The notes under the pieces: model-generated
The model's input: the letters and a program-made list of their open reading frames with translations, nothing else
The model's database searches: none
What the model was told of the DNA's origin: nothing
Translations under genes and position numbers: made by a program
Virus genome (UHGV): UHGV-0370164
Strand: one strand, 5' to 3'
Length of the DNA: 21,078 nucleotides
Source of the DNA: a virus
Part shown: piece after piece, positions 2,582 to 16,982 of the stretch
Numbering within the stretch: position 1 is the first letter of the stretch
Layout of the letters: each line of letters starts with the position of its first letter

Positions 2582-3232
2582 TTACAAATTAAAAAACACC
2601 CTAGAAATGGCACCGCCTACCAAAACCCCTACGCAGATAAAGAATATTATTTCTTTTGGATAAAGTCGGATTAATTCTGAAGCACGAAGTCGAACTTCTG
2701 GTAAGGCCGAACTCTCTGTGTGACTTGATGCCGATTGTTGCTCTAACCACGACAATGCAGACTGTAACTGAGAACGAGTAAGATCGTTTAAACGTCCTGT
2801 ACCGAAATTGATATGGCAATACCGCAGAAGTTTTTGTCGAAGTCCACAGTCTTCACTGTTACGTAGTAATAAACTTACAAGAGTCTTACAGGCATCATGA
2901 TCTTTACATCGCTCAAGCATTGCATGCAGAAAACTCTCCGCTGTTTTATATTGATTTACTGTCATATCATCAATACCAGCTACACCAATCTCCGCATGTA
3001 CTTTTTGCCAAATAATAAACGCTTCAGTATTGCTAGCTTCTGCAATAGCAGCAACCAAGCTATTTAGCTCCTTACGCTGAGCCTTAAGCAAAGGGCGATC
3101 GTCATCATCATTATTCGAAGGGATTGCGATATTGACGGTATGAGAACCATCATATCGCTCTATCTGAATATTCTTTTCGTGAAAATCACGCCCAGCAACG
3201 CGATTGTTTGAACCGTTTGAGTTGACGGCCAT
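2582..3232 (-). CDS. Membrane-anchored protein, unknown function (lysogeny-operon cargo)
   Basis: 216 aa; strong GGGAGGTG Shine-Dalgarno 6 nt upstream, immediately after the repressor stop; C-terminal hydrophobic helix (IIFFICVGVLVGGAISRVFF); N-terminus carries an NNRVAGRDF motif. Confidence 0.7.
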   Translation of the reverse strand: MAVNSNGSNNRVAGRDFHEKNIQIERYDGSHTVNIAIPSNNDDDDRPLLKAQRKELNSLVAAIAEASNTEAFIIWQKVHAEIGVAGIDDMTVNQYKTAESFLHAMLERCKDHDACKTLVSLLLRNSEDCGLRQKLLRYCHINFGTGRLNDLTRSQLQSALSWLEQQSASSHTESSALPEVRLRASELIRLYPKEIIFFICVGVLVGGAISRVFFNL

Positions 3233-3247
3233 GTCACCTCCCTACTA

Positions 3248-3652
3248 TCACCTACCCTTAGTTTCGTTATAGTCACGACCAGCGATACGGTTATTACCAC
3301 CAGAAATATTTAACTCACGTCCTGATGGCTGAGTTTCCTTTTCACTGATCGCACCTTTTAAAGCCCCGATCACCGCGTTTTTCACATCTAACGAAGCTGC
3401 TCGAAAGCGAGTAATCAACTCCTGCTCATCATCGTTATAAGTTTCAGGTGAGTGAATTCCCAACACAACATACTGAACATCAAGGCCAAAACGAGACAGC
3501 GCTGCCAAATACGCAGCATCAGGAAAGCTATCTCCTTTCTCATATCTAAGCTGAGTTAGCTTTTTGACTCCACCAATGTCGCTCATGGCAACTTGACTAA
3601 GTCCCAATCTTTCCCTTTCCTCACGCAACCGCTGACCAATATCATTTTTCAT
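3248..3652 (-). CDS. HTH (XRE-family) immunity repressor, C/cI-like
   Basis: 134 aa; N-terminal helix-turn-helix (LREERERLGLSQVAMSDIGGV...); transcribed divergently from the early operon and upstream of int, as in P2/186. Confidence 0.85.
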   Translation of the reverse strand: MKNDIGQRLREERERLGLSQVAMSDIGGVKKLTQLRYEKGDSFPDAAYLAALSRFGLDVQYVVLGIHSPETYNDDEQELITRFRAASLDVKNAVIGALKGAISEKETQPSGRELNISGGNNRIAGRDYNETKGR

Positions 3653-3727
3653 ACAAAAACCTTGACAGGTATCTTTTTTGATACCAAAATGATTTCACGA
3701 GCTATTAGATGATCACAATATACCACT
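3653..3727. promoter_or_regulatory. Lysis/lysogeny switch region: divergent promoters with operator palindrome
   Basis: TTGACA (3662-3667), 17-nt spacer, CAAAAT (3685-3690) on the plus strand; perfect inverted repeat GGTATC-N6-GATACC (3668-3685) sits in the spacer. Confidence 0.55.
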
Positions 3728-3934
3728 ATGAAACAAGTTCTTCACGATACCAGATCACGCATTCCGCGTAACACCGCCACAGGTCCAAGACTGGCACTTC
3801 GGCTGTCCCTCGAGGAGCGAGCCGTCATTGATGAAATGGCAGCTAAAGAACAACGCTCATCCTCTAACATGGCGCGCATGATCTTCCTTCGCGGCCTAGA
3901 GCTAACCCAGAAAGAACAAAACAAATCTTCCTGA
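3728..3934 (+). CDS. Small ribbon-helix-helix-like regulator (Cro-like position)
   Basis: 68 aa; RLALRLSLEERAVIDEMAAKEQRS-SNMARMIFLRGLE reads as strand-helix-helix; first gene of the rightward operon. No clear Shine-Dalgarno. Confidence 0.55.
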   Translation: MKQVLHDTRSRIPRNTATGPRLALRLSLEERAVIDEMAAKEQRSSSNMARMIFLRGLELTQKEQNKSS

Positions 3935-3950
3935 TCAGGAGGCTAGTGGG

Positions 3951-4154
3951 ATGTCAGGTATAACCATCAATATCAATGTGAATGCCCCCTATGTATCCCT
4001 GCAGAAATATGCAGAGATAACAGGTATCCCTCTTAATACATGCAAAAAGATGTTGGCTGACGGTCGAATTATTATCCGCCCCAAACGCGCCAAAATGGAA
4101 AAGCCTGAAGTAAACCTTGTGGCGATGTTAAAAGACGCTTTGGCTAACAGCTAA
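3951..4154 (+). CDS. Cox/Apl-like HTH excisionase-regulator
   Basis: 67 aa; AGGAGG Shine-Dalgarno; HTH-like segment VSLQKYAEITGIPLNTCKKMLADGRI; position matches cox/apl of P2/186. Confidence 0.65.
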   Translation: MSGITININVNAPYVSLQKYAEITGIPLNTCKKMLADGRIIIRPKRAKMEKPEVNLVAMLKDALANS

Positions 4155-4175
4155 AACAATGAACAGAGCATCATC

Positions 4176-4526
4176 ATGAAAAAAAACACTAATAATCCAT
4201 ACTCCAAATTTCGTAATGGCGTAGAACGCCATGTACACCACGTCGCTACCAGTGCATCACGTAGTAACAGCCGCTATAACCTGAACGAGACGCACGCAAC
4301 ACCAGATGGGCACGCTGTAAAACAAATCGGCGAACACACCTGGCTGATTGAGAAAGCTGGAATCGTGGTTCACAGATGCCCACACAATCCGTTTACCGGA
4401 AACCGCATTTTTGCATTAAGCAGCGGCGATAATCAGTTCGGGCAGGATTTCACATTGTACGAAGCACTACGCACAGTCGATCGTCTGCTTCGCGGGCAAA
4501 GTTTTATTAAACAGGCTGCTTTATAA
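4176..4526 (+). CDS. Hypothetical early protein
   Basis: 116-aa ORF in the rightward early operon; no recognisable motif. Confidence 0.5.
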   Translation: MKKNTNNPYSKFRNGVERHVHHVATSASRSNSRYNLNETHATPDGHAVKQIGEHTWLIEKAGIVVHRCPHNPFTGNRIFALSSGDNQFGQDFTLYEALRTVDRLLRGQSFIKQAAL

Positions 4527-4536
4527 CAGGTGCTTT

Positions 4537-4815
4537 ATGACTAAAGACCATGCACAAGGTGTATTTATCCGCTTTATTGATTTTCGCGGTGAACTGTTAT
4601 TACGCGCATCAGCTATTGACGGAGTAGTTCCATCTGAAAAAAACGCAGCTACCTACGTTTATCTGAACGGTACACGCCTGACTGTAGAGCTTCCGTACCA
4701 GATCATTCGCGAAATAATTAGCGAAGCCGAAAAATCTCGTCAGGTTAATGGCGATGAACCCTATATCGAGATTATCTGCATGGATTCAGAAGCTGAAATT
4801 CAGAAAGCAGATTAA
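4537..4815 (+). CDS. Hypothetical early protein
   Basis: 92-aa ORF, same strand and tight spacing as neighbours. Confidence 0.5.
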   Translation: MTKDHAQGVFIRFIDFRGELLLRASAIDGVVPSEKNAATYVYLNGTRLTVELPYQIIREIISEAEKSRQVNGDEPYIEIICMDSEAEIQKAD

Positions 4816-4826
4816 AGGGTGTTGCG

Positions 4827-5069
4827 ATGGATAAAGAATATAAAACTCTCATCAACAAAGCACTTGAGCGTTTTTATTTTCGTTTAAGCGCATCCGGCGC
4901 TCATTCAGAACGTGCAGCCCGTGACTCATTGACCAGGGCTATCCGGAGTCTGTATGACGTAGCTTTTTACGCTGACGATCTGGATGCACTTAATGAACTT
5001 TCTGAGCTTATCTGCGCCGCAGAATGCGGGGAGCATATTGAGCCGTACAAACTGGGAAATATCGCATGA
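4827..5069 (+). CDS. Hypothetical early protein
   Basis: 80-aa ORF; AAGGG upstream of ATG. Confidence 0.5.
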   Translation: MDKEYKTLINKALERFYFRLSASGAHSERAARDSLTRAIRSLYDVAFYADDLDALNELSELICAAECGEHIEPYKLGNIA

Positions 5070-5179
5070 GTATATTTATATCCTGGATTGTTCTTATTAT
5101 TTCGGTGGTTTGTGCAATTGGTATTATGCGAATTATTAATTCAGTAAAAAAGATTGAACGCTTTTTCACTGGCGAATAA
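5066..5179 (+). CDS. Small hydrophobic peptide (37 aa), putative membrane protein
   Basis: Not in the ORF track. ATG at 5066 overlaps the previous stop (ATGA); translation MSIFISWIVLIISVVCAIGIMRIINSVKKIERFFTGE is one transmembrane helix plus a basic tail. Confidence 0.3.
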   Translation: MSIFISWIVLIISVVCAIGIMRIINSVKKIERFFTGE

Positions 5180-5265
5180 CCGCATAAATAAAACCCCAGC
5201 TTAAATAAAAAAATGTGAACACAATCTGCATTCGCAGAGGTATTCACACACACCAAGGAGGCGTA

Positions 5266-5469
5266 ATGGCAATTAAGCATTTTCCTGTCGTTCGTTTCAC
5301 CTCCAGAGGACGTGAATACGAAGTCGACGAACGTCTGATTACCACAATCGACAAACACCGCTCAGAAAAGGATGCACACCACATCTATCTCACTGACGGC
5401 ACTTACTTTTGCGCCACTAATGTGGCGCGGGTGAATCTTATCCGACAGGTACAGGATCCACGCAAATGA
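5266..5469 (+). CDS. Hypothetical early protein
   Basis: Internal ATG of ORF 5215..5469 preceded by AAGGAGG; 67 aa (MAIKHFPVVRF...). Confidence 0.55.
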   Translation: MAIKHFPVVRFTSRGREYEVDERLITTIDKHRSEKDAHHIYLTDGTYFCATNVARVNLIRQVQDPRK

Positions 5470-5684
5470 GTAGGAGAAGAATCACTCGCAGACATCACCG
5501 AACACACCTGAGTTCCTCAGCAACGCTAAAGGCACTTATTCAAAGCGAGATCGGTGATTTCTTCGCGGGAGTTGGCTCACCAGGCGAACCAGAAACACCA
5601 GAAGCGATGCAGCGTGAGCTCATGATACGCATAGATAACACTTTTGATTTCTTCTACAGCATGCACGGAATTAAACAGAAATGA
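5466..5684 (+). CDS. Hypothetical early protein
   Basis: 72-aa ORF; ATGA start/stop overlap with the upstream gene. Confidence 0.5.
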   Translation: MSRRRITRRHHRTHLSSSATLKALIQSEIGDFFAGVGSPGEPETPEAMQRELMIRIDNTFDFFYSMHGIKQK

Positions 5685-5792
5685 ACCTCAAGCCAGCAAT
5701 AACTACTCGTAGAACGTCAATTCCTGTAACCGACCGCTTCTGAGTTTTTTGGCAGGAAGCCTTCGCACATCTGTAGTAAAGAGAATTGCAGC

Positions 5793-6182
5793 ATGATTGA
5801 CGCTCATGACTTCACAAGATGGGTGCGCACACAGGACACCCGTCTGGCTCCCGTTCTTCAGGGATTATTTGATCTCTACATCCGTGGTCGTGACAACAGA
5901 GCACGCACCACAAAACCGGAGAATGCAGACACCCTTTATTTCACAGTAGACGACTGCTACCGCGTGGACTTCACACCACACGGGCTGGCGTTGCACTGCC
6001 TGACACCACACGGCGAATCACTGCTGGCGTATTACGACTCCCCGGCCTCCATATTTGCGGCAATGCTGGCGCATCGCACTGCTGGCGGGTGTGCCTCGCT
6101 GAGTGAATACTCCGCTGAATTTAACCGCCTTTCCGCCCTCTTCTCACAGGAGTGGCAGCGCGTGACGGGATACCAGCCATGA
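5793..6182 (+). CDS. Hypothetical early protein upstream of gpA
   Basis: 129-aa ORF; its stop overlaps the gpA start (ATGA at 6179-6182). Confidence 0.55.
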   Translation: MIDAHDFTRWVRTQDTRLAPVLQGLFDLYIRGRDNRARTTKPENADTLYFTVDDCYRVDFTPHGLALHCLTPHGESLLAYYDSPASIFAAMLAHRTAGGCASLSEYSAEFNRLSALFSQEWQRVTGYQP

Positions 6183-9019
6183 GTGCGTTTGCATGGAGCT
6201 GGAATGAACCACGGCCAGCCATTGATCCGGCCAGATTTACGGAGCGCAGGCAGGAAACTGAAACCGACCTGCAACGCGCCATCCGTTACTACCTTGAGGC
6301 AAACAAAAGGGCACAGGAAGAACAGGAAGCGAAGGAAGAAGCCTTTTTCGCACAATCCACCGTGGGTAAAAAACTCATGGCATCCCTTGAGGAAGCCGGA
6401 CAGCGTGAAAAGCTGGCACAAAGCATCATCAGCAAGCGTCAGGCAACAGAACAAGACCCGGTGGCCCGTGCTTTTGCCACACTGAAGGTGCTTCCCGTTT
6501 ATCTGCGTGAACCTCTGAGCCGCCACCTCTCTTTTCTGCGCAAGAAGCAGGAAGCCGATCGTCAGAAAGGCAAAAAGAGCTGGCAGGCTGAACGCTACGC
6601 GCGCGGAACCCTGCGCAAAATATTCGAACGTCTGGACCGCACCGACAGCCGCTGGCTGACACCGGGCTATCGCTCCCTTGCCGGACGCGAACGCCTGGAC
6701 GATTTGCTTTACCTGCCGCAGCTCAACAAACACCAGATACAGACGCTGGCCACCATGACGGCGGCGATGTTCAGTGGCACTTTTGAAAAACTCTGCGATG
6801 GCTTTGGCGCGACCGATGGCGAGCTGACCATGGATGTAACGCTGAAGGCGTATCAGATGCTGGCCCGCATGGCGTTACACCTGCACGCTATGCCTCCACA
6901 TTATGACGCTCTGACAACAGACAAAGACCGGAGGAATGAACCGGACACGGAGCTGCTGCCGGGCGCAATCCTTCGCCTGACCTGTGCGGAATGGTGGAAA
7001 CGCAAACTGTGGCTGTTACGTTGCGAGTGGAGAGAAGAACAACTCCGCGCCGCCTGTCTGGTTTCCAGAAAAACATCACCCTATCTGAGCCAGGACGCGT
7101 TAAGCGAGTTTCGCGCACAGCGCGAGAAAACACGCGATTTCCTGAAAAGTTTCATGCTGGAAAACGAAGACGGGTTCACGATTGATCTCGAGACAGTGTA
7201 TTACGCGGGAGTAAGTAACCCGATTCACCGTAAGGCAGAAATGATGGCCACCATGAAGGGGCTGGAACTTCTGGCCGAAGCCCGTGGCGACAGAGCGGTG
7301 TTTCTGACTGTCACCTGCCCGTCAAAATACCACGCCACAACAGAGAACGGTCATCCGAATCCCAAATGGAACGGGGCCACCATGCGCGACTCCAGCGATT
7401 ACCTGGTTAACACGTTTTTTGCGGCGGTCCGCAAGAAACTGAACCGCGACGGCCTGCGCTGGTATGGCATCCGCACGGTGGAGCCTCACCATGACGGCAC
7501 CGTGCACTGGCATATGATGGTCTTTGCTCATCCGGAAGAAATCGACACCATTGTGTCCCACACCCGCGATATTGCCATTCAGGAAGACCGCCACGAGCTG
7601 GGCAATGATATTACTCCGCGCTTTAAGGTGGAGTATGTCGACGGCTCAAAAGGCACGCCAACCAGCTACATCGCCACCTACATCGGAAAGAACCTGGACA
7701 GCCGCGCCGTGGATGGCATCGACCCGAAAACGGGCAAGCCACGCGTTGACCACGAAACCGGAAAATCAATGGCCGAGAGCGTGGAACGCGCCATCGGCTG
7801 GGCACGCCTTCACCGGGTCCGCCAGTTCCAGTTCTTTGGCATCCCCTCCCGTCAGGTATGGCGTGAACTCCGCCGCCTTGCCAGCCAGATGGCACGCAAC
7901 CCGGAAGGCCCACAACGGCTGAAGGATGATGCAATGGATGCGGTACTCGCTGCCGCTGATGCCGGATGTTTTGCCACCTACATTGAAAAACAGGGTGGCG
8001 TACTTGTTCCGCGCAAGGACTACCTGATTCGCACAGCCTACGACCTCGCAGATGAGCTGAACGATTACGGCGAACAGAGTGTACAGATTTACGGGATCTG
8101 GTCGCCATTCATCGGGGAATCCTCCCGTGTGTGCACGCATCCGGATAACTGGAAGCTGGTAAGACGTAAACCGGAAGCGGAAGACAGCGCCCGCGAAAAT
8201 GGTTTTGACCTTCAGGGCGGCCCTGCCGCCCCTTGGACTCGTGGCAATAACTGTCCCCGTGTACAGGAAACAGGCAACAACGGGACAGAACAGCCGGAAG
8301 AACGGCCAGCACCGTGGCCGCAGCTTCCTGACGGCGTTGAAGTAAATGAATGGATGCGCTCACTGAAACGGCACGAACGCCGGGCGCTGATGCGTTCGCT
8401 TCGTGACAAACAGGCAAAAAACAGCAGCGATGAAATGCAGAACTGGACACAGAGCCGCAAACAGCAGCGGCCTTTGCCTGATAACCACGAGTTACTCGCT
8501 AAAGAATGGCGGGAGTCTGCTGAATCTCTCGGCCTGCATATCGGTGAACAACAGATGCAGCACCTGTTACGGGGCGGCAGTCTGTACGTTGACGGCAGCA
8601 TCATTGCACCGCAGGGATTTGAAATTGTACGCAAACCGGATACCCGCCCGGACAGCCGAATCACGCAGCTCTGGCAGCGTCTGAGCCGTAATCATGGCGT
8701 AAGCAGCACGGAGATCCGCCATAACCCGGTCGCCAGCTATCTGGCACAGCTGGGGGCATCAGACCCTGAAGCCGCCGCACGCCTGGCATCCACACTTCAG
8801 CAGGACCAGAACACCATGAAAACACCCGTTACCGTGCTTTCTGACATGCTGCGCGCCATCCGCGACGCAGAGCACGCACAGAGAATCAGTGAAACCACTG
8901 AACGCGCCAGCCGCAAAGCAGACCTGCTGCGGGGTGGCCTGACCAGTGGAAACAAAAAACAGACAGAAACGGGACTCACGAATCCCGTAAATGAGCAAAA
9001 AACGCGCAGCGATATATGA
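6179..9019 (+). CDS. Rolling-circle replication initiator, P2 gpA-like
   Basis: 946 aa from the ATG at 6179; HUH-type motif (GTVHWHMMVF) and paired tyrosines (TSYIATYIGKN) typical of the gpA family; Q/R-rich C-terminal tail. Confidence 0.85.
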   Translation: MSAFAWSWNEPRPAIDPARFTERRQETETDLQRAIRYYLEANKRAQEEQEAKEEAFFAQSTVGKKLMASLEEAGQREKLAQSIISKRQATEQDPVARAFATLKVLPVYLREPLSRHLSFLRKKQEADRQKGKKSWQAERYARGTLRKIFERLDRTDSRWLTPGYRSLAGRERLDDLLYLPQLNKHQIQTLATMTAAMFSGTFEKLCDGFGATDGELTMDVTLKAYQMLARMALHLHAMPPHYDALTTDKDRRNEPDTELLPGAILRLTCAEWWKRKLWLLRCEWREEQLRAACLVSRKTSPYLSQDALSEFRAQREKTRDFLKSFMLENEDGFTIDLETVYYAGVSNPIHRKAEMMATMKGLELLAEARGDRAVFLTVTCPSKYHATTENGHPNPKWNGATMRDSSDYLVNTFFAAVRKKLNRDGLRWYGIRTVEPHHDGTVHWHMMVFAHPEEIDTIVSHTRDIAIQEDRHELGNDITPRFKVEYVDGSKGTPTSYIATYIGKNLDSRAVDGIDPKTGKPRVDHETGKSMAESVERAIGWARLHRVRQFQFFGIPSRQVWRELRRLASQMARNPEGPQRLKDDAMDAVLAAADAGCFATYIEKQGGVLVPRKDYLIRTAYDLADELNDYGEQSVQIYGIWSPFIGESSRVCTHPDNWKLVRRKPEAEDSARENGFDLQGGPAAPWTRGNNCPRVQETGNNGTEQPEERPAPWPQLPDGVEVNEWMRSLKRHERRALMRSLRDKQAKNSSDEMQNWTQSRKQQRPLPDNHELLAKEWRESAESLGLHIGEQQMQHLLRGGSLYVDGSIIAPQGFEIVRKPDTRPDSRITQLWQRLSRNHGVSSTEIRHNPVASYLAQLGASDPEAAARLASTLQQDQNTMKTPVTVLSDMLRAIRDAEHAQRISETTERASRKADLLRGGLTSGNKKQTETGLTNPVNEQKTRSDI

Positions 9020-9061
9020 AGCGCGCACAAAACAGGCAAAAACGGGATTTCAGAATCCCGT
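8969..9061. promoter_or_regulatory. Paired 20-bp palindromes flanking the gpA stop; candidate parC-like centromere/operator
   Basis: ACGGGACT-CACG-AATCCCGT (8969-8988) and ACGGGATT-TCAG-AATCCCGT (9042-9061), 73 bp apart, each in a similar ~28-bp context, directly upstream of parM. Confidence 0.4.
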
Positions 9062-9095
9062 AAACGATTAATTAATCAACATAAGGAAAACCGAC

Positions 9096-10055
9096 ATGAA
9101 AATTTACATCGACGACGGCTCCACCAACATCAAGCTGGCATGGACTGAGAACGGCGAACGCCGCAACGCCATCAGCCCGAACAGCTTCAAGTCGGAATGG
9201 TCTGCGCCGTTCGGTGGCTCGCAGCCTGCTAACTACATGCTTGATGGCGTGCGCTATGGTTTTGATCCGGTCAGCGATCGCTTTGTCCAGACGACCGACA
9301 CGCAATACCAGTACAGCGATGTGAATGTCATTGCCATTCATCACGCGCTGGTCAAATCAGACATCACGCCACAGGAAGTGGATGTGGTTGTTACCCTGCC
9401 ACTGAGCGAATATTTCGACACAAACGCACAGCCGGACATGGCCAACATCAACCGCAAAAAAGCGAACGTCATGCGCCCGGTGGAGTACCAGAACGGCGAA
9501 GCATTCACTATCCGTAACGTACGGGTTATGCCTGAATCCATTCCGGCTGGCTTTAAAGCACTGGCTGACATGAGTCCGTTTGAATCCCTGCTGATTGTGG
9601 ATTTGGGCGGAACCACGCTGGATGTGGCAAAGGTTCAGGGGCAACTGGCAGGTATCAGCCAGGTGTTTTGCGATCCACACGTAGGCGTTTCTCTTATGGC
9701 CGATGCCGTACTGTCGGTGATGGCCACTAACGGTATGCGCACCAGTCACCACATCGCCAATACCATTATCGAACATCGCCATAATGAAGCCTGGCTGCGC
9801 CAGCACATCCACAATGACGCGCATTACGCCAGCCTGATGGCGGTTATTCGTGAAAAGGAAGAAACACTGAAACAACGCGTGATCCGCGCGCTGGCGGTTT
9901 TTTCGGGTTACGGGCGGGTGATGGTTGTCGGTGGCGGGGCGGAGATTGTGGCACCCGCTATCCGCGAAGCCTGCGGAGTTAATGCGACTTTCATCGCGGA
10001 CGGGGTGCCACAGTTTGCTCTGGTTAATGGGCTGTACGCAATGGACAAGGAGTAA
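9096..10055 (+). CDS. parM: ParM/StbA-family actin-like partition ATPase
   Basis: 319 aa; matches plasmid R1 ParM as recalled along its length (IDDGSTNIKL, ISPNSFK, YSDVNV, VMPESIPAG, DLGGTTLD, GVSL, GGGAE, LVNG); AAGGAAAA Shine-Dalgarno. Confidence 0.9.
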   Translation: MKIYIDDGSTNIKLAWTENGERRNAISPNSFKSEWSAPFGGSQPANYMLDGVRYGFDPVSDRFVQTTDTQYQYSDVNVIAIHHALVKSDITPQEVDVVVTLPLSEYFDTNAQPDMANINRKKANVMRPVEYQNGEAFTIRNVRVMPESIPAGFKALADMSPFESLLIVDLGGTTLDVAKVQGQLAGISQVFCDPHVGVSLMADAVLSVMATNGMRTSHHIANTIIEHRHNEAWLRQHIHNDAHYASLMAVIREKEETLKQRVIRALAVFSGYGRVMVVGGGAEIVAPAIREACGVNATFIADGVPQFALVNGLYAMDKE

Positions 10056-10059
10056 ACCA

Positions 10060-10371
10060 ATGACGACACCAACCAGACGGATAAGTTTCTATCTGAAGCC
10101 CGCCGCCGTCAAGAACGAAGGAGAAGCATGCGCCTGGCTGGACAGCCTTACACCAGAAGCCCGCAAAAGCGGCCAACGCGTGGCTTTTCTGGCCGGGCTG
10201 GCACTTCTGAAGACGAATCCGGCAGAGGCTTACCGACTGGCCGCATGGGCTGATGATGAGATGTTACCTGTGACACAAATCAGCTCAAAAAAGTTTGAAG
10301 CACAGTCTGCACCAGTGGCTAAGATAACCAGCCAGATGGCTGGGAATATCCGGGCGTTATTTCCTGAGTAA
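10060..10371 (+). CDS. parR: ParR-like partition adaptor/repressor
   Basis: 103 aa from the ATG 4 nt after the parM stop; N-terminal RRISFYLKP...AC.WLDSL...ER...LAGLAL and C-terminal IRALFPE resemble R1 ParR as recalled. Confidence 0.8.
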   Translation: MTTPTRRISFYLKPAAVKNEGEACAWLDSLTPEARKSGQRVAFLAGLALLKTNPAEAYRLAAWADDEMLPVTQISSKKFEAQSAPVAKITSQMAGNIRALFPE

Positions 10372-10499
10372 AAGCATCTGCGCGAAAAATGCTCACGTTT
10401 ATAGAGACAGTATCATTCCATTTGGCACACTTACTTCAATAATCGATCTGTTAAACAAATAGATTGTCTATTATCTATCGATTAAAACGATCAATTATC

Positions 10500-10527
10500 T
10501 TGACAGTAATGTGCCTTTTTGTAAGAT
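10500..10527 (+). promoter_or_regulatory. Near-consensus sigma70 promoter
   Basis: TTGACA (10500-10505), 16-nt spacer, TAAGAT (10522-10527); imperfect palindrome AATAGAT...ATCTAT just upstream. Confidence 0.45.
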
Positions 10528-10633
10528 CGTTCGCATTGTGAGCGACAAGATAATTGCGCGGCATTGTCCATGCAAAACGCCCCAATAGCAGCAACTATTG
10601 GGGCGTAAAACTCGGTCGGACTCACTTAACCTG

Positions 10634-10719
10634 ATATGCGTGCCTTCCGAAGTAAATCAAAATGTGCGTCGTATATTTTATTGCTTACACGCACCTCTGT
10701 AAAGGCACGCATATTTTTC
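10634..10719 (+). terminator. Large stem-loop with U5 tract in the leader (attenuator/terminator or small RNA 3' end)
   Basis: Perfect 13-bp inverted repeat ATATGCGTGCCTT (10634-10646) / AAGGCACGCATAT (10702-10714) enclosing an inner GTGCGT/ACGCAC hairpin, followed by TTTTT (10715-10719). A 12-bp-stem hairpin lies at 10577-10606. Confidence 0.4.
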
Positions 10720-10735
10720 CTATGAGGTAAATAAA

Positions 10736-11005
10736 GTGCGGGCTAAAACAGGTATTTGCAAGAACCCTCATCGTTATAATCCAACATTTCTGTCTCTCCC
10801 TGAATATCAAGGACAAGAAGGTCGGCACAAATGCGCTGCCTGTGCTTTTGAGCTAGGCATAAAAGATGCGCTTGAAGGACGCGCTATGGCTCAGAATGAT
10901 TTAGTTTTAGCTAACATTCCGTTTAGCCAGGCTGGAACTGTAAGGCACAGAGATGCCTATGAAGCATATGTTCGTGGTTGGCGATTAATAAACAGCAACA
11001 ATTGA
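10736..11005 (+). CDS. Small Cys/His-containing protein, unknown function
   Basis: 89 aa; GTG start with GAGG Shine-Dalgarno 8 nt upstream; CKNPH...HKCAAC suggests metal binding; followed by a terminator. Confidence 0.5.
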   Translation: MRAKTGICKNPHRYNPTFLSLPEYQGQEGRHKCAACAFELGIKDALEGRAMAQNDLVLANIPFSQAGTVRHRDAYEAYVRGWRLINSNN

Positions 11006-11014
11006 TACTTTTGA

Positions 11015-11037
11015 AGCGCCGATAAGGCGCTTTTTTT
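11015..11037 (+). terminator. Intrinsic terminator
   Basis: AGCGCC / GGCGCT stem with GATAA loop followed by TTTTTTT, 10 nt after the stop at 11005. Confidence 0.7.
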
Positions 11038-11490
11038 GTTTGCACGATAGTGCACAAGTTTGCACAATTTTTTTGAACGACTTTTTGTACTTCCGGCCCG
11101 CGTGGTGGCTGGATCCGTCAAGGATCCGTACGTGCACAAAAAAACGCGTTTTTTCTGCGCGCAGGTGACGGGGGAACAGCCCGCGTTTCAGGGGGTAAAT
11201 AGCATCCCCTGAACGATGTCGCAGCGACACAACAGAATGGCTGTATTTCTCACGCTGAGCGTGAAAAAGACGTGAGGGCTTTTGATTTGATGGGTGGCAG
11301 ATAAGGCCGTCAAAATCGCACTGAGGCGGCGAGAACATGCAGTCAACGCGGTGGGATTGCGTAAGAGTCTGACCGCCGATGATGACAATAAGCAGAAAAG
11401 CGTCGTGAAATTATCTGATTGATACAGGAGCTGGAGAGTCGGGGCATAAATTTTTTATGCCCCGGCGAAGCAGCAGACAAGCGAAGCGCG

Positions 11491-12537
11491 TCAGGATGTG
11501 GGCTGGGTATCTAGCAGTGCGTAAGGGTTAAAGCGGATCACCTCTTCGCCAAGCCAGTCATTGATGTGCTTCATGGCCTCCATGACGGGCATCAGCTCGT
11601 TAATTGCGTAAACCCGCGCGGCCTTCTCCACATCACCAAACGCACTTTTTTCGCCCGGCATCGCCCCCATCAGTTGCGGCGGAACGCGGTGCGCAGCCAG
11701 CACATCATCACGGGATGCCGCCTTAACATTCATGAACTCATCCTTTGCAGTGATCTGCTGGAACGGCAAAATTTGCACACCTTCTTTGCCCCCGTTGGGC
11801 GCATGGATGAGTACGTTTTTAAACGCACCACCACCACGCGCGCCCTGTAACGTTTCTTTCAGGGAGTCCATGCTTTCGCGGTTTACCTGCGCTGCACCGA
11901 TGTAGATGATGCACCCGGCGTGGGATCCGTTGTCGTAGTACAGTTTTCTGAACATGTCCGCCGAATGAGAAAGGCTGGCCGAGAGTAATGCGCCAAGATA
12001 TTCCGGCATGCCGTAGATTTCCTGGTTAATATCCGGATTCATCAGGTGGCACACTTTGCCAGGGCGAAACTGGAACGCGTCCTTGCCATCCTGCACATAC
12101 CACCATGATTCAAGATCGCTTCCGCGTCGCATGTATTTCGCCAGGGCGTGCCGTAATTTAAGCGGTTCGCCGAGCATATTGCTTCTAAGCTCAAGGAATG
12201 CGTTACCGAACACAAACCAGTCCAGCGCCAGCGCCGAGAAATCCTGCCGGGAAAGCAGCGGGTGCGGGATGTAGCAACCGAGTAATACATTGCGCTTAAA
12301 GTAAAGCGCAGACTGATGCCAGGACGTTTGCCGGGCTGCTCTTGCCAGACCGTACCAGTCCACCGGGGTTTCATACCACCGTCCGTTATCAGCACAGTAC
12401 ATATTGTCCAGCAGGTCATGCCCGGTCAGGCGATAAGGACCATCAAATGTGAATGCACTGAGCGATGATTCTTTCCTGAGCGCATCAGCGAGATCAATGC
12501 GTGAACTCATGCGCACTTTTTTATTTTTTCTGCTCAT
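11491..12537 (-). CDS. Portal protein, P2 gpQ-like
   Basis: 348 aa, right size for P2 Q; directly downstream of and overlapping the terminase gene on the same strand. Called from context and size. Confidence 0.85.
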   Translation of the reverse strand: MSRKNKKVRMSSRIDLADALRKESSLSAFTFDGPYRLTGHDLLDNMYCADNGRWYETPVDWYGLARAARQTSWHQSALYFKRNVLLGCYIPHPLLSRQDFSALALDWFVFGNAFLELRSNMLGEPLKLRHALAKYMRRGSDLESWWYVQDGKDAFQFRPGKVCHLMNPDINQEIYGMPEYLGALLSASLSHSADMFRKLYYDNGSHAGCIIYIGAAQVNRESMDSLKETLQGARGGGAFKNVLIHAPNGGKEGVQILPFQQITAKDEFMNVKAASRDDVLAAHRVPPQLMGAMPGEKSAFGDVEKAARVYAINELMPVMEAMKHINDWLGEEVIRFNPYALLDTQPTS

Positions 12538-14396
12538 CAGAACTCCATAACCGTGAAACGCTCGTTTTCTCCTTCGCCGCCAATCGGTTCGTTAATGACA
12601 GCAAGCATGGTTGCCCACGCAAGGTCGCCGTGGCTGATCCCCCTCGCGCGGTCCGTTTCGTAAGTGATAAAGCCGCCCGGTGTTTTCACCTTACGCACGG
12701 CGTTAAAGGCCGCGACCAGCTCGCGTTCGGCGCGATCGTATTCCCACCGCCCGGCACGCATTATTTGCAGCATTTTCAGTACCAGCGACCGTTTTGATGA
12801 CAGCGTGAAGGTGTACGGAATAGCAGCAGGGAAAAACCGTTTCACTATCTGATAAACAGCCTCCCCGTTCCCGCCCGTCACATCAATGCCGATGTGTTCC
12901 ACGTTGTAGCGATACGTGAACTCTTCAATGACTCTGGCCTGTTCTTCAAACTCCAGCCCCTGAACGCGTCGCGTCTCCACCGTTCGAAAACGGCCACCAA
13001 GAACAGCCGGAGGAACCACCACGGACACAGCGCCGCTGTCGCCGTTGCCACTACTGCCGTTTGCGTCATACCCAATCCATACCGGACGATTCCCCATCGG
13101 GCGGGGAGCAAAAGGTTTCCAGTCTTTCCAGTCGTCGTATCCGTCAACACCGCAGCCAATCAGGATATTCAGGTTAAATGCCGATTCCCCTTCGCGGACA
13201 AACTCACACATATAGAGATTGAGGAACTCGTCTTCGGTGTTTTCATCACGAATTTCGTCGATATCGGTGTGTTTCCAGCCGTGATTGACCACATCTTCCA
13301 GCGTGACAATTTGCCGCCACGTCCGGTCAGGGCAGATAAGCCCGTTATGCAGAGTTTTCCAGTCCACAGAAAAACGCTGGCGTTTATGCGTGGCCTTTTT
13401 CTCGTTCCAGCGGTCGCCGTTCCAGTAGGCGTATGCCTCGTGCGTTTCGGTGGATGGCGTGGAGAAGTAGGTGCGCCGCAGTCCGCTGAGGGTTGCCATA
13501 GCGCCAGCCACCTTGCGCAGTTCAGCAAAGCGACTGACCCAGAAAAATTCATCAAAATAAAAATTGCCCGTATAGGACTGTGCCGACGCAGCAGAAGTGC
13601 CGAGAAAATGCAGCTCTGCGCCGTTGGAGAGGATGATTTTATCGCCCCCTTTCAGCTCCACATCAACTTCAGCCGCGGCCTTCTGAATAATGCTTTTAAA
13701 CTGGAACGCCTGACGACGCGACGCAGACAAAAAAATCTGGTTACGCTGGTAAGGTTGCGCCACATCGTCACGCAGCGCCATCAGCAGAGCTTCCTGTGCA
13801 AAATACCAGGTCGCCCCAATCTGTCGGGATTTCAGGATCATCCTGTTACGTATCCCGGCTTCCCTGCAAAGGGTCAGGGAGTCAAACCAGCCCCGCTGAT
13901 GCCACTCCAGCCTGCTGATGATTTTTTCCCGCAGTGCGGCAATCTGTTCCGGCGTGAAATGATTTTTGAGTTTTTTCGCCCGGCCTTTCTTTCCTGTGAC
14001 CGTCGCATCCGGCTGGCCATCATGCAGTTTTTTAAGCTGCCGGGTCAGCAGGTCTATTTCCTTAAAGTCACCGCCTGTTTTATTCTGTTTTTCAGTAAGC
14101 TGGATGAGGCGCGCATCGATGGACTGCGTGACACGCTGCACGGGTGGCGTTTCATCCCACTGGTCGCGTTTTTTCCACGCATAAATCGTGTTCGGGTTTA
14201 TTCCCATCAGACGTGATATTTCTGCGGGCGGATAATCGAACCCACACAGAATATGGCCATCAGCGACATACAGGCGGCGCGCTGTGAGTCGTTCACCATC
14301 AGCGAAGGTGGGCGCAATGAGTAATTCACTGTTACCACCATCAGCCAGCAGTTTCATGCGTTGTGCCGAAGCTGTCGGAACGCGCATTACAGACAT
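12537..14396 (-). CDS. Terminase large (ATPase) subunit, P2 gpP-like
   Basis: Long minus-strand ORF with a deviant Walker A-like segment (ILKSRQIGATWYFAQEA). Start uncertain: GTG at 14432 or ATG at 14396/14387/14357, none with a good Shine-Dalgarno; all overlap the gpI start. Confidence 0.8.
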   Translation of the reverse strand: MSVMRVPTASAQRMKLLADGGNSELLIAPTFADGERLTARRLYVADGHILCGFDYPPAEISRLMGINPNTIYAWKKRDQWDETPPVQRVTQSIDARLIQLTEKQNKTGGDFKEIDLLTRQLKKLHDGQPDATVTGKKGRAKKLKNHFTPEQIAALREKIISRLEWHQRGWFDSLTLCREAGIRNRMILKSRQIGATWYFAQEALLMALRDDVAQPYQRNQIFLSASRRQAFQFKSIIQKAAAEVDVELKGGDKIILSNGAELHFLGTSAASAQSYTGNFYFDEFFWVSRFAELRKVAGAMATLSGLRRTYFSTPSTETHEAYAYWNGDRWNEKKATHKRQRFSVDWKTLHNGLICPDRTWRQIVTLEDVVNHGWKHTDIDEIRDENTEDEFLNLYMCEFVREGESAFNLNILIGCGVDGYDDWKDWKPFAPRPMGNRPVWIGYDANGSSGNGDSGAVSVVVPPAVLGGRFRTVETRRVQGLEFEEQARVIEEFTYRYNVEHIGIDVTGGNGEAVYQIVKRFFPAAIPYTFTLSSKRSLVLKMLQIMRAGRWEYDRAERELVAAFNAVRKVKTPGGFITYETDRARGISHGDLAWATMLAVINEPIGGEGENERFTVMEF

Positions 14397-14847
14397 CCCG
14401 GTAGACCTCAACACGCTGTGGTCGCCGGACACCTGCCCGGTGCACCTGCTGCCTTATCTCGCCTGGGCATTTTCCGTTGACCGCTGGGATCGCAACTGGC
14501 CGGAAGAGACAAAACGACAGGTGATTCGTGATGCATGGCTGATACACCGACACAAAGGGACCATCAGCGCACTGCGCAGGGCCATTGAGCCGCTGGGATA
14601 CCTCATTCGCGTGTCTGAGTGGTGGGAGTTCGGCGGAGAACCGGGAACATTTACCGTTGAAGTCGGCACACTGGACAGTGGCGTGACGGAGGAAATGTAT
14701 CTGGAAATGGAGCGGTTGATTGCTGATGCCCGTCCGGTCAGCCGCCACATGACAGGGCTGAATATCATTCAGGAAATTCCGGGGGATATTTTTGCAGCGG
14801 CGGCAACTCATGACGGTGAAGTTATTACCATTTATCCGGACGATTAA
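14317..14847 (+). CDS. Baseplate assembly protein, P2 gpI-like
   Basis: 176 aa from the ATG at 14317 (AAGGTGG Shine-Dalgarno); [44 protein letters not shown] match P2 gpI as recalled. Confidence 0.85.
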
Positions 14848-14849: not shown

Positions 14850-16982
14850 ATGAGTACCACAACACGAAAATTTAAAACCGTTATCACCGATACAGGTGCA
14901 AAAAAATTAGCTCAGGCAGCCGCGCCAGATGGTAAGCCTGTCCGCCTGACTCATATGGCCGTGGGCGACGGTGGCGGCGCGTTGCCCACACCAGACAGTA
15001 AGCAGACCCGTCTGGTGCATGAGGTGTGGCGACACACTGTTAATCGCGTCATCCTGGACGCAACACATCAGAACCGCATTATTGCGGAGCTGGTTATTCC
15101 TCCAGAAACGGGCGGATTCTGGATCCGGGAAATTGGTGTGTTTGATGAGCACGGCGATTTAATCGCGGTGGGCAATACTGCCGAAAGTTACAAGCCAGCC
15201 GTTGCCGAAGGGTCCGGACGTGCACAAACATTTCGCACCATTCTGACCGTATCCAGCACTGCCACTGTGGCGCTTACCGTGGATAACACCATGGTGATGG
15301 CCACAGTGGATTACGTGGATAACAAACTGAAAGAGCATGAACAGTCACGATGTCACCCGGATGCCTCGCTGACCGCAAAAGGCTTTGTTCAACTCAGTAG
15401 CGCCACTAACAGCGATTCTGAAACGCTGGCTGCAACGCCGAAAGCGGTTAAGGTCGCGTATGATCTTGCTAACGGAAAATATACAGCGCAGGATGCCACA
15501 ACAGCGCGAAAAGGCCTTGTCCAGCTTAGTAGTGCAACCAACAGTACATCTGAAACGCTGGCGGCAACATCAAATGCAGTAAAAGCTGCCTATGACAATG
15601 CTGAAAAACGTCTGCAGAAAGCTAAGAATGGTGAGGATATCTCTGATAAAGACACCTTTACGAAAAATATCGGTGCCTGCCGTGCATATAGTGCAGAGCT
15701 GAATATTGGTGGAGATAGTGAAGCATGGACAACTGCGCAGTTGATTTTTTGGCTAGAGAGTCAGGGGGCATTTAACCATCCTTACTGGATGTGCAAAGGC
15801 TCATGGGCTTATGCAAATAATAAGGTCATTACAGATACAGGTTGCGGAAGTATTTGTCTTGCAGGTGCTGTTGTGGAAGTTATTGGCACCCGCGGCGCAA
15901 TGACCATACGCATTACCACACCGAGTACATCCAGCGGTGAAGGCATCCCTAATGCTCAATTTACTTATATTAATCATGGTGATGCTTATGCTCCTGGCTG
16001 GCGAAGGGACTATAACTCCAGGAATAAGCCAACAGCATCAGAGATCGGGGCGTTACCGTCAGATGGGACAGCAGTATCGTCAGTTAATCTGGCTTCAAAA
16101 GGTCGGCTGACCGCCCTGACAGATAATATGCAGGGGGCCACAGGTCTGGAGTTATACGAGGCGTATAACAACGGATATCCAACAACGTATGGAAATATCA
16201 TTCACCTGAAAGGGATGACAGCCGTTGGCGAAGGCGAATTACTCATCGGCTGGAGTGGTATAAGCGGTGCTCATGCTCCGGCATTTATTCGTTCACGACG
16301 GGATACGACCGACGCAAACTGGTCGCCGTGGGCGCAGCTTTACACCTCGGCTCATCCTCCTGAAGAGTTTTATCCAGTCGGTGCACCGATTCCGTGGCCA
16401 TCAGATACCGTTCCGTCTGGTTATGCCCTGATGCAGGGGCAGACTTTTGACAAATCTGCATACCCGAAACTTGCAGTCGCTTATCCGTCAGGCGTTATTC
16501 CTGATATGCGTGGCTGGACGATTAAGGGCAAGCCCGGCAGTGGTCGTGCCGTATTGTCTCAGGAACAGGACGGCATTAAATCGCACACCCACAGCGCCAG
16601 CGCATCCAGTACGGATTTGGGGACGAAAACCACATCGTCGTTTGATTACGGTACTAAAACGACCAGTTCATTTGATTACGGCACAAAAACTACGAATAGC
16701 GCTGGAAATCATTCACACAATATACCTGTTGGTCACACTGGCGCGGGGAATGGTGTATCAGCCGGTTATAACGCTGCGTTAGGTACTGGTACCACGTCGA
16801 GCGCAGGCGAGCATGCTCACAATGTATATATCGGTGCCCATAACCACACTATCGGCATTGGTGCTCATGCCCATTCTGTCATTATTGGTCCCCACGGACA
16901 CACCATCACCGTTAACGCTACGGGTAACGAAGAAAACACCGTAAAAAACATCGCATTTAACTATATTGTGAGGCTTGCATAA
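14850..16982 (+). CDS. Tail fibre protein, P2 gpH-like, with His-rich distal domain
   Basis: 710 aa; conserved N-terminal fibre domain ([48 protein letters not shown]) and duplicated [17 protein letters not shown] segment; C-terminus has HxH-type repeats. Confidence 0.9.
16620..16694 (+). repeat. Tandem 30-bp coding repeat in the tail-fibre gene
   Basis: 2.5 copies encoding [10 protein letters not shown] / [10 protein letters not shown] / GTKTT; copies differ at synonymous sites. Confidence 0.6.

What the first reader, a model, noticed from the sequence alone, without database searches (positions are those of the whole stretch)
9096..10371. Plasmid-type ParMR partition system inside an integrated P2-like prophage
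A clear ParM actin-like ATPase and ParR adaptor occupy the position between gpA and the packaging genes where P2 carries tin/old. An integrated prophage does not need active segregation, so this suggests a phage-plasmid lifestyle for the excised circle, plasmid incompatibility or exclusion, or a co-opted function.
Basis: partly seen in the sequence, partly recalled or inferred. Interest (0 to 1): 0.7.

Follow-up and report, generated by a model that had tools for sequence, protein, structure and literature searches.

The report
ParM/ParR partition genes in P2-like prophage
The window carries a genuine actin-type DNA-partition gene pair (ParM and ParR) next to the replication gene of a P88-like (P2-family) E. 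coli prophage; this is real but already annotated and remarked on in print, and its role in a phage that integrates is still untested.

Summary
Confirmed: parM (9096-10055) and parR (true start 10060, to 10371) are intact type II partition genes. ParM is about 50% identical to plasmid R1 ParM over its full length. ParR hits Pfam PF10784 and keeps the C-terminal ParM-binding motif.

The element is a P88-like (Xuanwuvirus) prophage. ParM/ParR are annotated in P88 and in 1303 of 5426 complete E. coli genomes. Rousset 2022 and Pfeifer 2021 already noted the system and proposed plasmid-like maintenance, so it is already known.

What I add:
- parMR is not swappable hotspot cargo. It is present in about 97% of genomes with this gpA type. 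Homologues at 53-62% identity in Hafnia, Plesiomonas, Serratia and Enterobacter sit in the same gpA-parM-parR-variable-portal order. They form one clade apart from plasmid ParMs.
- parM dN/dS is 0.01-0.15. ParR shows a constrained DNA-binding domain, a free linker and an invariant tail.
- A conserved pair of GGGA-N8-TCCC palindromes 73 bp apart upstream of parM is the likely centromere/operator.
- A stable plasmid lifestyle is poorly supported: 1441 chromosomal versus 2 plasmid places, and 6 of 72,556 plasmid records.
- This particular prophage is defective, with a deletion of about 7.8 kb.

Most likely it partitions or positions the transient circular phage genome.

The parts
6179..9019 (+). 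gpA rolling-circle replication endonuclease. parMR follows it on the same strand with no terminator in between.
   Evidence: Pfam Phage_GPA E 9.7e-130. Annotated boundaries taken from the 99.985% identical SCU-105 prophage. No plus-strand terminator-like site between gpA and parM.
8953..8994 (+). Upstream repeat 1 (42 nt), containing the palindrome ACGGGA-N8-TCCCGT at 8969-8988. It lies inside the gpA 3' end. Candidate parC/ParR site.
   Evidence: The position relative to the parM ATG (-126) and the GGGA-N8-xCCC core are conserved in Salmonella, Hafnia and Plesiomonas, although the overlapping coding sequence is not homologous.
9026..9067 (+). Upstream repeat 2 (42 nt), containing the palindrome ACGGGA-N8-TCCCGT at 9042-9061, 73 bp after repeat 1 and 53 nt before the parM ATG. 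Candidate parC/operator that overlaps a weak -35-like TTCAGA. The conserved ATTAAT at 9067-9076 is a possible -10.
   Evidence: The promoter assignment is my reading of the sequence; the consensus scan did not call it.
9096..10055 (+). parM, actin-like segregation ATPase, 319 aa, intact.
   Evidence: Pfam. PDB 1mwk E 8e-92, about 50% identity. PHROG 691. dN/dS 0.01-0.15.
10060..10371 (+). parR, ribbon-helix-helix centromere-binding adaptor, 103 aa. Its start is coupled to the parM stop.
   Evidence: Pfam PF10784 E 9.8e-24. PHROG 2515. The C-terminal motif aligns with the R1 ParR tail. Three-part selection pattern.
10372..11040 (.). Variable cargo slot, the real tin/old-equivalent hotspot. Here it holds an 89-aa ORF (10736-11005, PHROG 3941, function unknown) with a promoter-like site at 10500-10527 and a terminator at 11013-11033.
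   Evidence: Similarity to P88-like relatives stops at 10371 and resumes at 11041..
11491..12537 (-). Portal gene (gpQ homologue), the right boundary of the gpA-portal interval.
   Evidence: Pfam Phage_portal E 4e-18. Annotation in relatives.
14231..14235 (.). Deletion junction that makes this prophage defective. P88 coordinates 14098 and 21943 are joined with a 5-nt overlap.
   Evidence: blastn of the window against P88 and SCU-105. No identical junction in 5426 E. coli genomes.

Best explanation
This is a functional type II (ParMRC-like) DNA segregation cassette. It is an old, vertically inherited part of the replication module of a large clade of P2-like phages, not an exchangeable moron.

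Proposed mechanism:
1. parM-parR is transcribed with, or just after, gpA. It is therefore made when the phage genome is a free replicating circle: after infection, or after excision on induction.
2. ParR dimers bind the two GGGA-N8-TCCC palindromes immediately upstream of parM, probably also repressing a weak local promoter.
3. The invariant C-terminal tail of ParR captures the ends of ParM filaments. Insertional ParM polymerisation pushes sister phage circles apart.

Benefit to the phage (inferred): it spreads or positions the monomeric circles that P2-type rolling-circle replication produces, as with CGP3 AlpAC. It may also make sure both daughter cells inherit a copy during the transient episomal phase, before integration or after excision without lysis, as with SXT/R391 SrpMRC. 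It does not maintain a permanent plasmid prophage.

Shown here: family membership, intactness, purifying selection, synteny, clade structure, the conserved upstream sites and the predominance of integrated copies.

Inferred: ParR binding to those sites, timing of expression, filament formation and the fitness benefit.
For: - ParM and ParR family membership, with catalytic and interaction motifs kept.
- parM dN/dS is 0.01-0.15 across E. coli, E. albertii, Salmonella and P88.
- ParR selection pattern: codons 1-65 dN/dS about 0.06-0.19; linker dN about equal to dS; last 11 codons have 0 nonsynonymous changes against dS 0.3-1.8. This is the pattern expected for a DNA-binding domain, a flexible linker and a ParM-binding peptide.
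- Near-core status: parM is in 1279 genomes against 1322 for the P88-type gpA, at 80% coverage or more.
- Homologues at 53-62% identity in Hafnia, Plesiomonas, Serratia and Enterobacter all lie gpA-parM-parR-variable-portal.
- These homologues form one neighbour-joining clade separate from R1 and plasmid ParMs.
- gpA is 56% and ParM 62% identical between the window and Plesiomonas, which indicates co-divergence.
- The two palindromes sit 72-73 bp apart at fixed distance from the parM ATG in four genera, over non-homologous coding sequence.
- Same strand as gpA, a 76-nt gap, no terminator and no strong promoter.
- Experimental precedents: SrpMRC stabilises an integrative element (PMC4489591). 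AlpAC is early-induced and needed for efficient prophage DNA replication (PMC4446434).
Against: - No experiment on any P88-like ParMR was found in the literature searches.
- The candidate centromere has only two sites, whereas R1 parC has ten iterons in my recollection of the literature. It could instead be an operator only, a gpA/ori-related element, or a minus-strand terminator-like hairpin; the scan flags both palindromes as such.
- The timing of expression is inferred from gene order only.
- A cell committed to lysis gains nothing obvious from faithful partition, so the selective benefit is unclear.
- The neighbour-joining tree has no support values, and genomic context was checked for five lineages only.
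Confidence: 0.55

Rival explanations
1. Phage-plasmid lifestyle: P88-like phages alternate between an integrated state and a stable, heritable plasmid state, and ParMRC keeps the low-copy plasmid form. This is the reading of the first reader, of Rousset 2022 and of Pfeifer 2021.
For: - The module is a complete plasmid-type partition system.
- One 34,461-bp circular 'plasmid' record is a full P88-like genome.
- Two phage records were deposited as separate replicons of sequenced isolates.
- Published suggestions.
- A Burkholderia P2-like phage, KS14, is a proven plasmid prophage.
- The defective copy in this window keeps int, cox, gpA and parMR but cannot lyse or package, so an excised circle could in principle persist.
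Against: - 1441 chromosomal against 2 plasmid places in complete E. coli genomes.
- Only 6 of 72,556 plasmid records carry this ParM type, and 5 of them are 227 kb to 1.4 Mb.
- No plasmid ParM falls in the 53-95% identity range that the phage clade occupies.
- All complete relatives that I inspected keep a tyrosine integrase and sit at chromosomal sites.
- P88 was induced from the chromosome, and phiSM is described as integrating into it.
- The only replication function seen is the rolling-circle gpA. KS14 instead has plasmid RepB plus ParA.
- Isolated circular copies are what spontaneous induction in a sequenced culture would give.
Confidence: 0.15
2. Defence, exclusion or incompatibility cargo: like tin/old in P2, the pair is expressed from the prophage. 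It would interfere with incoming phages, satellites or plasmids, for example by titrating or mis-segregating DNA that carries a related centromere.
For: - It lies in the gpA-portal interval, which is a documented hotspot of anti-phage systems.
- The ParR linker and allele families are unusually diverse while ParM is 96-100% conserved. Conflict could drive this.
- Some genomes carry 2-3 copies.
Against: - No PADLOC match.
- Unlike hotspot cargo it does not turn over. It is near-core, syntenic and co-diverging with gpA across genera. The turnover happens downstream of parR.
- No plasmid has a ParM closer than 52%, so there is no obvious incompatibility target.
- The DNA-binding strand and the upstream sites do not vary between ParR alleles.
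Confidence: 0.1
3. Inert passenger: a plasmid-derived module captured by a phage ancestor and carried along without function.
For: It appears dispensable for a defective integrated prophage, and no phenotype has been reported.
Against: - Strong purifying selection on parM, on the ParR DNA-binding domain and on the ParR tail.
- Retention with conserved synteny down to 53% protein identity.
- Conserved non-coding sites.
Confidence: 0.03

Closest known systems
ParMRC of plasmid R1 (stbAB of R100), the type II partition system
   Same: - Same gene order: upstream cis site, then parM, then parR.
- ParM is about 50% identical over its full length, with the nucleotide-binding motifs kept.
- ParR is in the same Pfam family, with a homologous N-terminal strand and a homologous C-terminal K/R-x-N-A/I-x-x-L-F tail.
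   Different: - Carried by an integrating P2-like phage next to a rolling-circle initiator, not by a theta-replicating plasmid.
- ParR is shorter (103 versus 116 aa) and lacks about 25 residues of the middle region.
- The upstream region has two 20-bp palindromes 73 bp apart, rather than the A/C-rich iteron array with an embedded TTGACA promoter seen in the R1-type plasmid.
- The phage ParMs form their own clade.
ParM/ParR of Escherichia phage P88 and other Xuanwuvirus (Peduoviridae) phages, including Citrobacter phage phiSM
   Same: The same module at the same place. ParM is 98% identical, ParR 83% and the upstream region nearly identical. The window element is a member of this group.
   Different: - The window copy has a ParR linker allele that differs from P88.
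- It has different cargo after parR.
- It has a deletion of about 7.8 kb that removes head, lysis and baseplate genes.
SrpMRC of SXT/R391 integrative conjugative elements
   Same: A ParMRC-type system carried by an element that normally lives integrated. It was shown to reduce loss of the transient, rolling-circle-replicating excised form (PMC4489591). This is the closest functional analogy.
   Different: - SrpM/SrpR are only distantly related to R1 ParM/ParR, whereas the phage proteins are close homologues.
- The host element is conjugative and its excision does not kill the cell.
AlpAC/alpS of the Corynebacterium glutamicum prophage CGP3
   Same: - A prophage-encoded actin-like ATPase plus a co-transcribed adaptor that binds sites in its own upstream region.
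- The genes are induced early after excision.
- They are required for efficient phage DNA replication (PMC4446434).
   Different: AlpC is a different, distant actin-like family in an actinobacterial prophage. No sequence relationship was tested or seen here.
Plasmid prophages with partition systems: P1 ParAB, N15 SopAB, D6 StbA-type ParM, Burkholderia KS14 ParA
   Same: - Phages that encode plasmid partition functions.
- D6 has an R1-type ParM that is 47% identical to this one.
- KS14 has P2-like virion genes.
   Different: - KS14 lysogenises as a plasmid and has a plasmid RepB instead of gpA. That P1, N15 and D6 are plasmid prophages with their own plasmid replicons is from my own knowledge and was not checked here.
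- P88-like elements keep gpA and a tyrosine integrase and are almost always found in chromosomes.

Membership tests
ParM (type II partition actin-like ATPase) | Actin/Hsp70-fold ATPase with the ParM-specific N- and C-terminal domains over the full length. | tested here: met
   Pfam StbA_N covers residues 1-157 (E 9.7e-81) and the ParM C-terminal domain covers 159-316 (E 3e-68). phmmer against PDB R1 ParM 1mwk: E 7.7e-92, residues 1-316 aligned to 1-318.
ParM (type II partition actin-like ATPase) | Conserved nucleotide-binding and hydrolysis motifs: phosphate 1 DDGSTN, catalytic Glu in MPES, phosphate 2 DLGGTTLD, adenosine GGGA. | tested here: met
   All four motifs are identical or conservative in the residue-by-residue alignment with R1 ParM.
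ParM (type II partition actin-like ATPase) | ATP-dependent, dynamically unstable filament formation. | not testable with these tools
   Needs purified protein or live-cell imaging.
ParR (type II centromere-binding adaptor) | N-terminal ribbon-helix-helix DNA-binding domain of the StbB/ParR family. | tested here: met
   Pfam PF10784 E 9.8e-24, residues 6-71. The strand TRRISFYLKP aligns with R1 RRTIAFKLNP. dN/dS is 0.06-0.19 in codons 1-65. The fold itself was not modelled.
ParR (type II centromere-binding adaptor) | C-terminal peptide that binds ParM. | tested here: inconclusive
   The tail MAGNIRALFPE aligns with the R1 tail TKKNAMKLIN and with [KRQ]-N-A-x-x-L-F-P in all phage ParRs. It has no nonsynonymous change despite dS 0.3-1.8. 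Binding itself was not tested.
ParMRC locus (complete type II system) | Gene order: cis-acting centromere upstream, then parM, then parR in one operon. | tested here: met
   Repeats at 8953-9067, parM 9096-10055, parR 10060-10371 with a 4-nt gap and its own Shine-Dalgarno sequence.
ParMRC locus (complete type II system) | Centromere made of an array of multiple ParR-binding repeats that also contains the autoregulated promoter. | tested here: inconclusive
   Only two palindromic sites 73 bp apart were found. They are conserved in position across four genera, but no iteron array and no consensus promoter was detected. ParR binding is untested.
ParMRC locus (complete type II system) | Stabilises an otherwise unstable low-copy replicon. 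| not testable with these tools
   Requires a plasmid-loss assay.
Phage-plasmid (plasmid prophage) | The lysogenic state is maintained as an extrachromosomal replicon. | tested here: not met
   1441 chromosomal against 2 plasmid places in 5426 complete E. coli genomes. 6 of 72,556 plasmid records carry this ParM type, and only one is a phage-sized circle. This is a survey of assemblies, not of living lysogens.
Phage-plasmid (plasmid prophage) | A plasmid-type replication initiator with copy control. An integrase is dispensable. | tested here: not met
   Only the rolling-circle gpA is present, together with a tyrosine integrase. No Rep3/RepB-type gene was seen among the ORFs that I scanned, in contrast with KS14.
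Anti-phage defence system in the P2 hotspot | Similarity to known or candidate defence proteins, and rapid turnover between related prophages. | tested here: not met
   No PADLOC hit. The module is near-core and syntenic across genera, and turnover occurs only downstream of parR.

The most novel reading that the evidence does not exclude
ParMRC is an ancestral component of the replication module of a whole clade of P2-like phages. It would work during the lytic or pre-integration phase as a viral DNA-positioning cytoskeleton. With a minimal two-site centromere, it would separate the monomeric circles made by gpA rolling-circle replication so that they replicate, are packaged or are inherited efficiently. 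That would make about a quarter of E. coli genomes carriers of a phage-owned actin-like machine whose role is not plasmid maintenance.
Probability: 0.35. Interest if true: 0.55.

Novelty: already known. Interest (0 to 1): 0.3.

Why it matters
About a quarter of complete E. coli genomes, including O157:H7 strains such as EDL933, carry this module inside a P2-like prophage. No experimental test of what it does there turned up in my searches.

If it positions or partitions transient phage circles, it would be a second case, in a model host that is easy to work with, of a bacterial virus using its own actin-like cytoskeleton. The first is CGP3 AlpAC. It would also add a phage counterpart to the active partition already shown for integrative conjugative elements (SXT/R391 SrpMRC).

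For annotation it matters in two ways:
- 'Plasmid segregation protein ParM' next to gpA should not be taken as evidence of a plasmid or a phage-plasmid.
- Studies of the P2 defence hotspot should place the variable slot after parR.

Tried and rejected
- NCBIfam gave only sub-threshold hits for ParM and none for ParR. Pfam and PDB settle membership.
- A PDB sequence search with ParR found nothing. The R1 ParR peptide in 4A62 is, as I recall, 17 residues, shorter than the 20-residue minimum of the library.
- PADLOC gave no hits for ParM, ParR or neighbouring cargo, so a known defence system is rejected.
- The single-protein scan of genome contigs found only near-identical copies plus relatives at about 50%. 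It missed the 53-62% phage relatives, which the protein-cluster search found later.
- I wanted to test whether the strain carrying the 34.5-kb circular copy also has an integrated copy. Querying its integrase/attP region showed that the record is not in the E. coli collection: 311 chromosomal and 0 plasmid places. The question stays open.
- The deletion junction was searched for in 5426 genomes and no identical junction was found. Three genomes have a different deletion in the same region.
- RNA reading of the upstream palindromes: the two copies can pair with each other (z -5.2). However, the stems shrink to 3-4 bp in Hafnia and Plesiomonas while the spacing is kept. The single substitutions in Salmonella are not compensatory. 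I therefore prefer a protein-binding reading.
- The papers on P88, on phiSM and on the global diversity of P2-like viruses say nothing on the function of these genes.
- Structure prediction was not run, because sequence-level membership was unambiguous.
Full report
**1. What is there**

The window holds two adjacent plus-strand genes.
- parM (9096-10055) encodes 319 aa. It matches Pfam StbA_N (E 9.7e-81) and the ParM C-terminal domain (E 3e-68).
- ParM aligns end to end with R1 ParM structures (1mwk, E 7.7e-92, about 50% identity). The DDGSTN, MPES, DLGGTTLD and GGGA motifs are all kept.
- parR starts at ATG 10060, not at the TTG at 9925 that opens the longest ORF. It lies 4 nt after the parM stop, behind an AAGGAG.
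- ParR is 103 aa and matches Pfam PF10784, the StbB/ParR family, at E 9.8e-24.
- Upstream is gpA (6179-9019, Phage_GPA E 1e-129). Downstream on the minus strand are portal and large terminase.

**2. What the element is**

- The region is 94-97% identical to Escherichia phage P88 and other Xuanwuvirus (Peduoviridae) phages, including Citrobacter phage phiSM. These genes are annotated there as ParM and partition protein.
- PHROGs already has families for both proteins: 691 and 2515, 'partition protein'.
- The window is 99.985% identical over 968-14235 to a prophage of E. coli SCU-105.
- At 14231-14235 the window jumps from P88 coordinate 14098 to 21943.
- That deletion removes the terminase 5' end, scaffold, capsid, small terminase, head completion, lysis, tail completion and most baseplate genes. 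This copy is therefore a defective prophage.
- No genome in the E. coli collection has the same junction.

**3. Already known**

- Rousset et al. 2022 surveyed the gpA-gpQ interval. [quoted passage not shown]
- Pfeifer et al. 2021 flagged P88 in a phage-plasmid screen. [quoted passage not shown]
- The phiSM paper lists the gene only as a 'fitness' ORF.
- The P88 paper does not discuss it.
- I found no experimental work on it.

**4. Cargo or core?**

- parM is found in 1303 of 5426 complete E. coli genomes, 1279 of them at 80% coverage or more.
- The P88-type gpA is found at 80% coverage or more in 1322 genomes. About 97% of genomes with this gpA type therefore also have parM.
- Similarity between relatives ends exactly at the parR stop (10371) and resumes at 11041. 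The variable tin/old-like slot lies after parR.
- The protein-cluster search found ParMs at 62% (Hafnia, Plesiomonas), 57-58% (Serratia) and 53% (Enterobacter) identity.
- All four that I looked up lie in the order gpA, parM, PF10784 parR, variable genes, portal, inside P2-like prophages on chromosomal-size or prophage contigs.
- Two proteins at about 50% identity (Mangrovibacter, Dickeya) lie in plasmid-like and conjugative contexts.
- In a neighbour-joining tree of 107 ParMs, the phage-context sequences form a single clade apart from R1 and the plasmid ParMs. The tree has no support values.
- Between the window and the Plesiomonas phage, gpA is 56% identical over residues 1-710 and ParM 62%. 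This fits long co-divergence.

I conclude that parMR was acquired once and has been inherited with the replication module.

**5. Selection**

- parM dN/dS is 0.01-0.15 in all pairwise comparisons among seven copies.
- ParR is far more variable than ParM: 83% and about 54% identity between alleles, against 96-100% for ParM. The variation is structured:

| ParR region | Pattern |
|---|---|
| Codons 1-65 (DNA-binding domain) | dN/dS about 0.06-0.19 |
| Codons 66-92 (linker) | dN about equal to dS; within the P88 type, 4-6 nonsynonymous against 0 synonymous changes |
| Last 11 codons | No nonsynonymous change despite dS 0.3-1.8 |

- The C-terminal motif [KRQ]-N-[AI]-x-x-[LF]-F-P is shared by all phage ParRs. 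It aligns with the R1 ParR tail KKNAMKLIN, which I recall from the 4A62 structure as the ParM-binding peptide.

This is the signature of a working adaptor.

**6. Candidate centromere**

- Two 42-nt direct repeats (8953-8994 and 9026-9067) each contain ACGGGA-N8-TCCCGT. They are 73 bp apart. The first lies inside the gpA 3' end and the second ends 29 nt before the parM start codon; its palindrome begins 53 nt upstream of the ATG.
- The stems are invariant among P88-like copies whatever the ParR allele, while the centres vary.
- The same architecture is present in Salmonella, Hafnia and Plesiomonas: GGGA-N8-xCCC at about -126 to -132 and at -53 to -60, 72-73 bp apart.
- It is present there although the overlapping coding sequence is a non-homologous gpA tail, or an unrelated 167-aa ORF in Hafnia. 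The sites are therefore anchored to parM, not to gpA.
- The Serratia/Enterobacter subclade has a different arrangement, and its ParR strand also differs: NRKISFYL against TRRISFYL.
- A conserved ATTAAT(T/C)AA just before the Shine-Dalgarno sequence may be a -10 element. The consensus scan found no promoter here and no terminator after gpA.
- I read this as a minimal parC/operator, with parMR transcribed largely with the early gpA operon. That is inference.
- The scan also flags both palindromes as minus-strand terminator-like hairpins. An RNA pairing of the two copies is possible, but the weak stems in other genera argue against it.

**7. Lifestyle**

- parM lies at 1441 chromosomal and 2 plasmid places in complete E. 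coli genomes.
- In 72,556 plasmid records only 6 carry this ParM type. Five of those records are 227 kb to 1.4 Mb. One is a 34,461-bp circle that is a whole P88-like genome with its integrase.
- No plasmid ParM falls between 53% and 95% identity, and the next best is 52%.
- The only replication function is the rolling-circle gpA, and a tyrosine integrase is present.
- The proven P2-like plasmid prophage KS14 uses RepB plus ParA instead.

A stable plasmid state is therefore not the normal condition. Occasional circular records fit spontaneous induction. I could not check whether the strain with the 34.5-kb circle also has an integrated copy.

**8. Mechanism and rivals**

Best explanation, confidence about 0.55: a working ParMRC acts on the free circular phage genome during its transient episomal phases. 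The closest experimental precedents are:
- SrpMRC of SXT/R391 elements, which reduces loss of the excised replicating form.
- AlpAC of prophage CGP3, an early-induced actin-like protein plus adaptor needed for efficient phage DNA replication.

From my own knowledge, P2-type replication yields monomeric circles that are the packaging substrate. That makes a circle-separating device plausible.

Rivals:
- Stable phage-plasmid maintenance (0.15).
- Defence, exclusion or incompatibility (0.1). There is no PADLOC hit, no turnover and no related plasmid target.
- Inert passenger (0.03), which the selection data contradict.

**9. Verdict**

The finding is real and correctly identified, but it is already annotated and already discussed in the literature with the same hypothesis. 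My analysis shifts the weight. The module is a conserved, phage-owned part of the replication region rather than hotspot cargo. The assembly data argue against a regular plasmid lifestyle. A specific two-site centromere candidate and a constrained ParR tail can now be tested. Interest is modest (0.3). Novelty: already known.

Noticed in passing
window 14231-14235 (junction); affects 12537-14847: This prophage copy is defective. About 7.8 kb present in P88 (14098-21943) and in SCU-105 is missing: the terminase 5' end, scaffold, capsid, small terminase, head completion, holin/endolysin/Rz, tail completion and most baseplate genes. The junction has a 5-nt overlap. No identical junction was found in 5426 E. 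coli genomes; three genomes have a different deletion in the same region.
   Followed up: yes
window 10372-11040: This is the real variable cargo slot of the gpA-portal interval. It holds an 89-aa ORF of unknown function (10736-11005, PHROG 3941, contains a CAAC motif), with a TTGACA/TAAGAT promoter-like site at 10500-10527 and a terminator at 11013-11033. P88, 569R5, Serratia (HicAB) and Enterobacter (KAP NTPase) carry other genes here.
   Followed up: partly
window 10570-10703 (minus strand): A possible small RNA antisense to the cargo transcript. There is a promoter-like TTTACA-17-TAAAAT at 10703-10675. It is followed by a perfect 12-bp-stem hairpin (10577-10606) and a U-run on the minus strand. 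The fold z-score is -3.0. There is no Rfam match.
   Followed up: partly
window 10255-10335 (parR codons 66-92), compared with L002, L003, L004, L012, L013: The ParR linker is hypervariable, and there are at least two deep allele families (83% and about 54% identity), while ParM stays 96-100% identical. In some relatives the recombination breakpoint falls near parR codon 18. Roughly 57% of E. coli genomes with a match have the window/P88-type 3' half. The cause is unknown: relaxed constraint, or incompatibility avoidance between co-resident prophages.
   Followed up: partly
window 8280-9019 (gpA residues about 710-955): The C-terminal 240 or so residues of gpA have no counterpart in the Plesiomonas homologue (789 aa), which is 56% identical up to residue 710. 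gpA lengths in parMR-carrying phages range from 785 to 955 aa. The tail overlaps the first candidate ParR site.
   Followed up: partly
window 1-1045: Identity to the SCU-105 prophage starts at 968. The 3' 55 nt of a tRNA-Leu (leuZ-like) lies on the minus strand at about 975-1030, with no complete tRNA. The left flank (1-967, low GC, one 131-aa minus-strand ORF) differs from the yecA flank of SCU-105. This suggests another element in tandem or a different chromosomal context.
   Followed up: partly
window 2205-3232 (minus strand): There are two low-GC cargo genes between the integrase and the repressor: a DUF2511 protein (2205-2552) and a 216-aa predicted membrane protein with no Pfam match (2582-3232). 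They are shared with SCU-105 but absent from P88 and WS3294A.
   Followed up: no
window 17604-18209 (minus strand): A 201-aa ORF at 35% GC between the tail-fibre assembly gene and gpU. It matches PHROG 2154 (unknown function) and weakly matches a hexapeptide-transferase repeat. It is probably an acetyltransferase-like moron in the second P2 hotspot.
   Followed up: no
window 17325-17523 (+): A full-length Rfam match to the IS009 sRNA family (RF02111, 192 bits, E 1e-46), inside the tail-fibre assembly gene.
   Followed up: no
window 15648-16016: This segment of the tail-fibre gene matches P88 at 26836-26468 on the opposite strand. In P88 that is the alternative, invertible tail-fibre segment next to a DNA invertase. 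I did not see an invertase gene in this part of the window.
   Followed up: no
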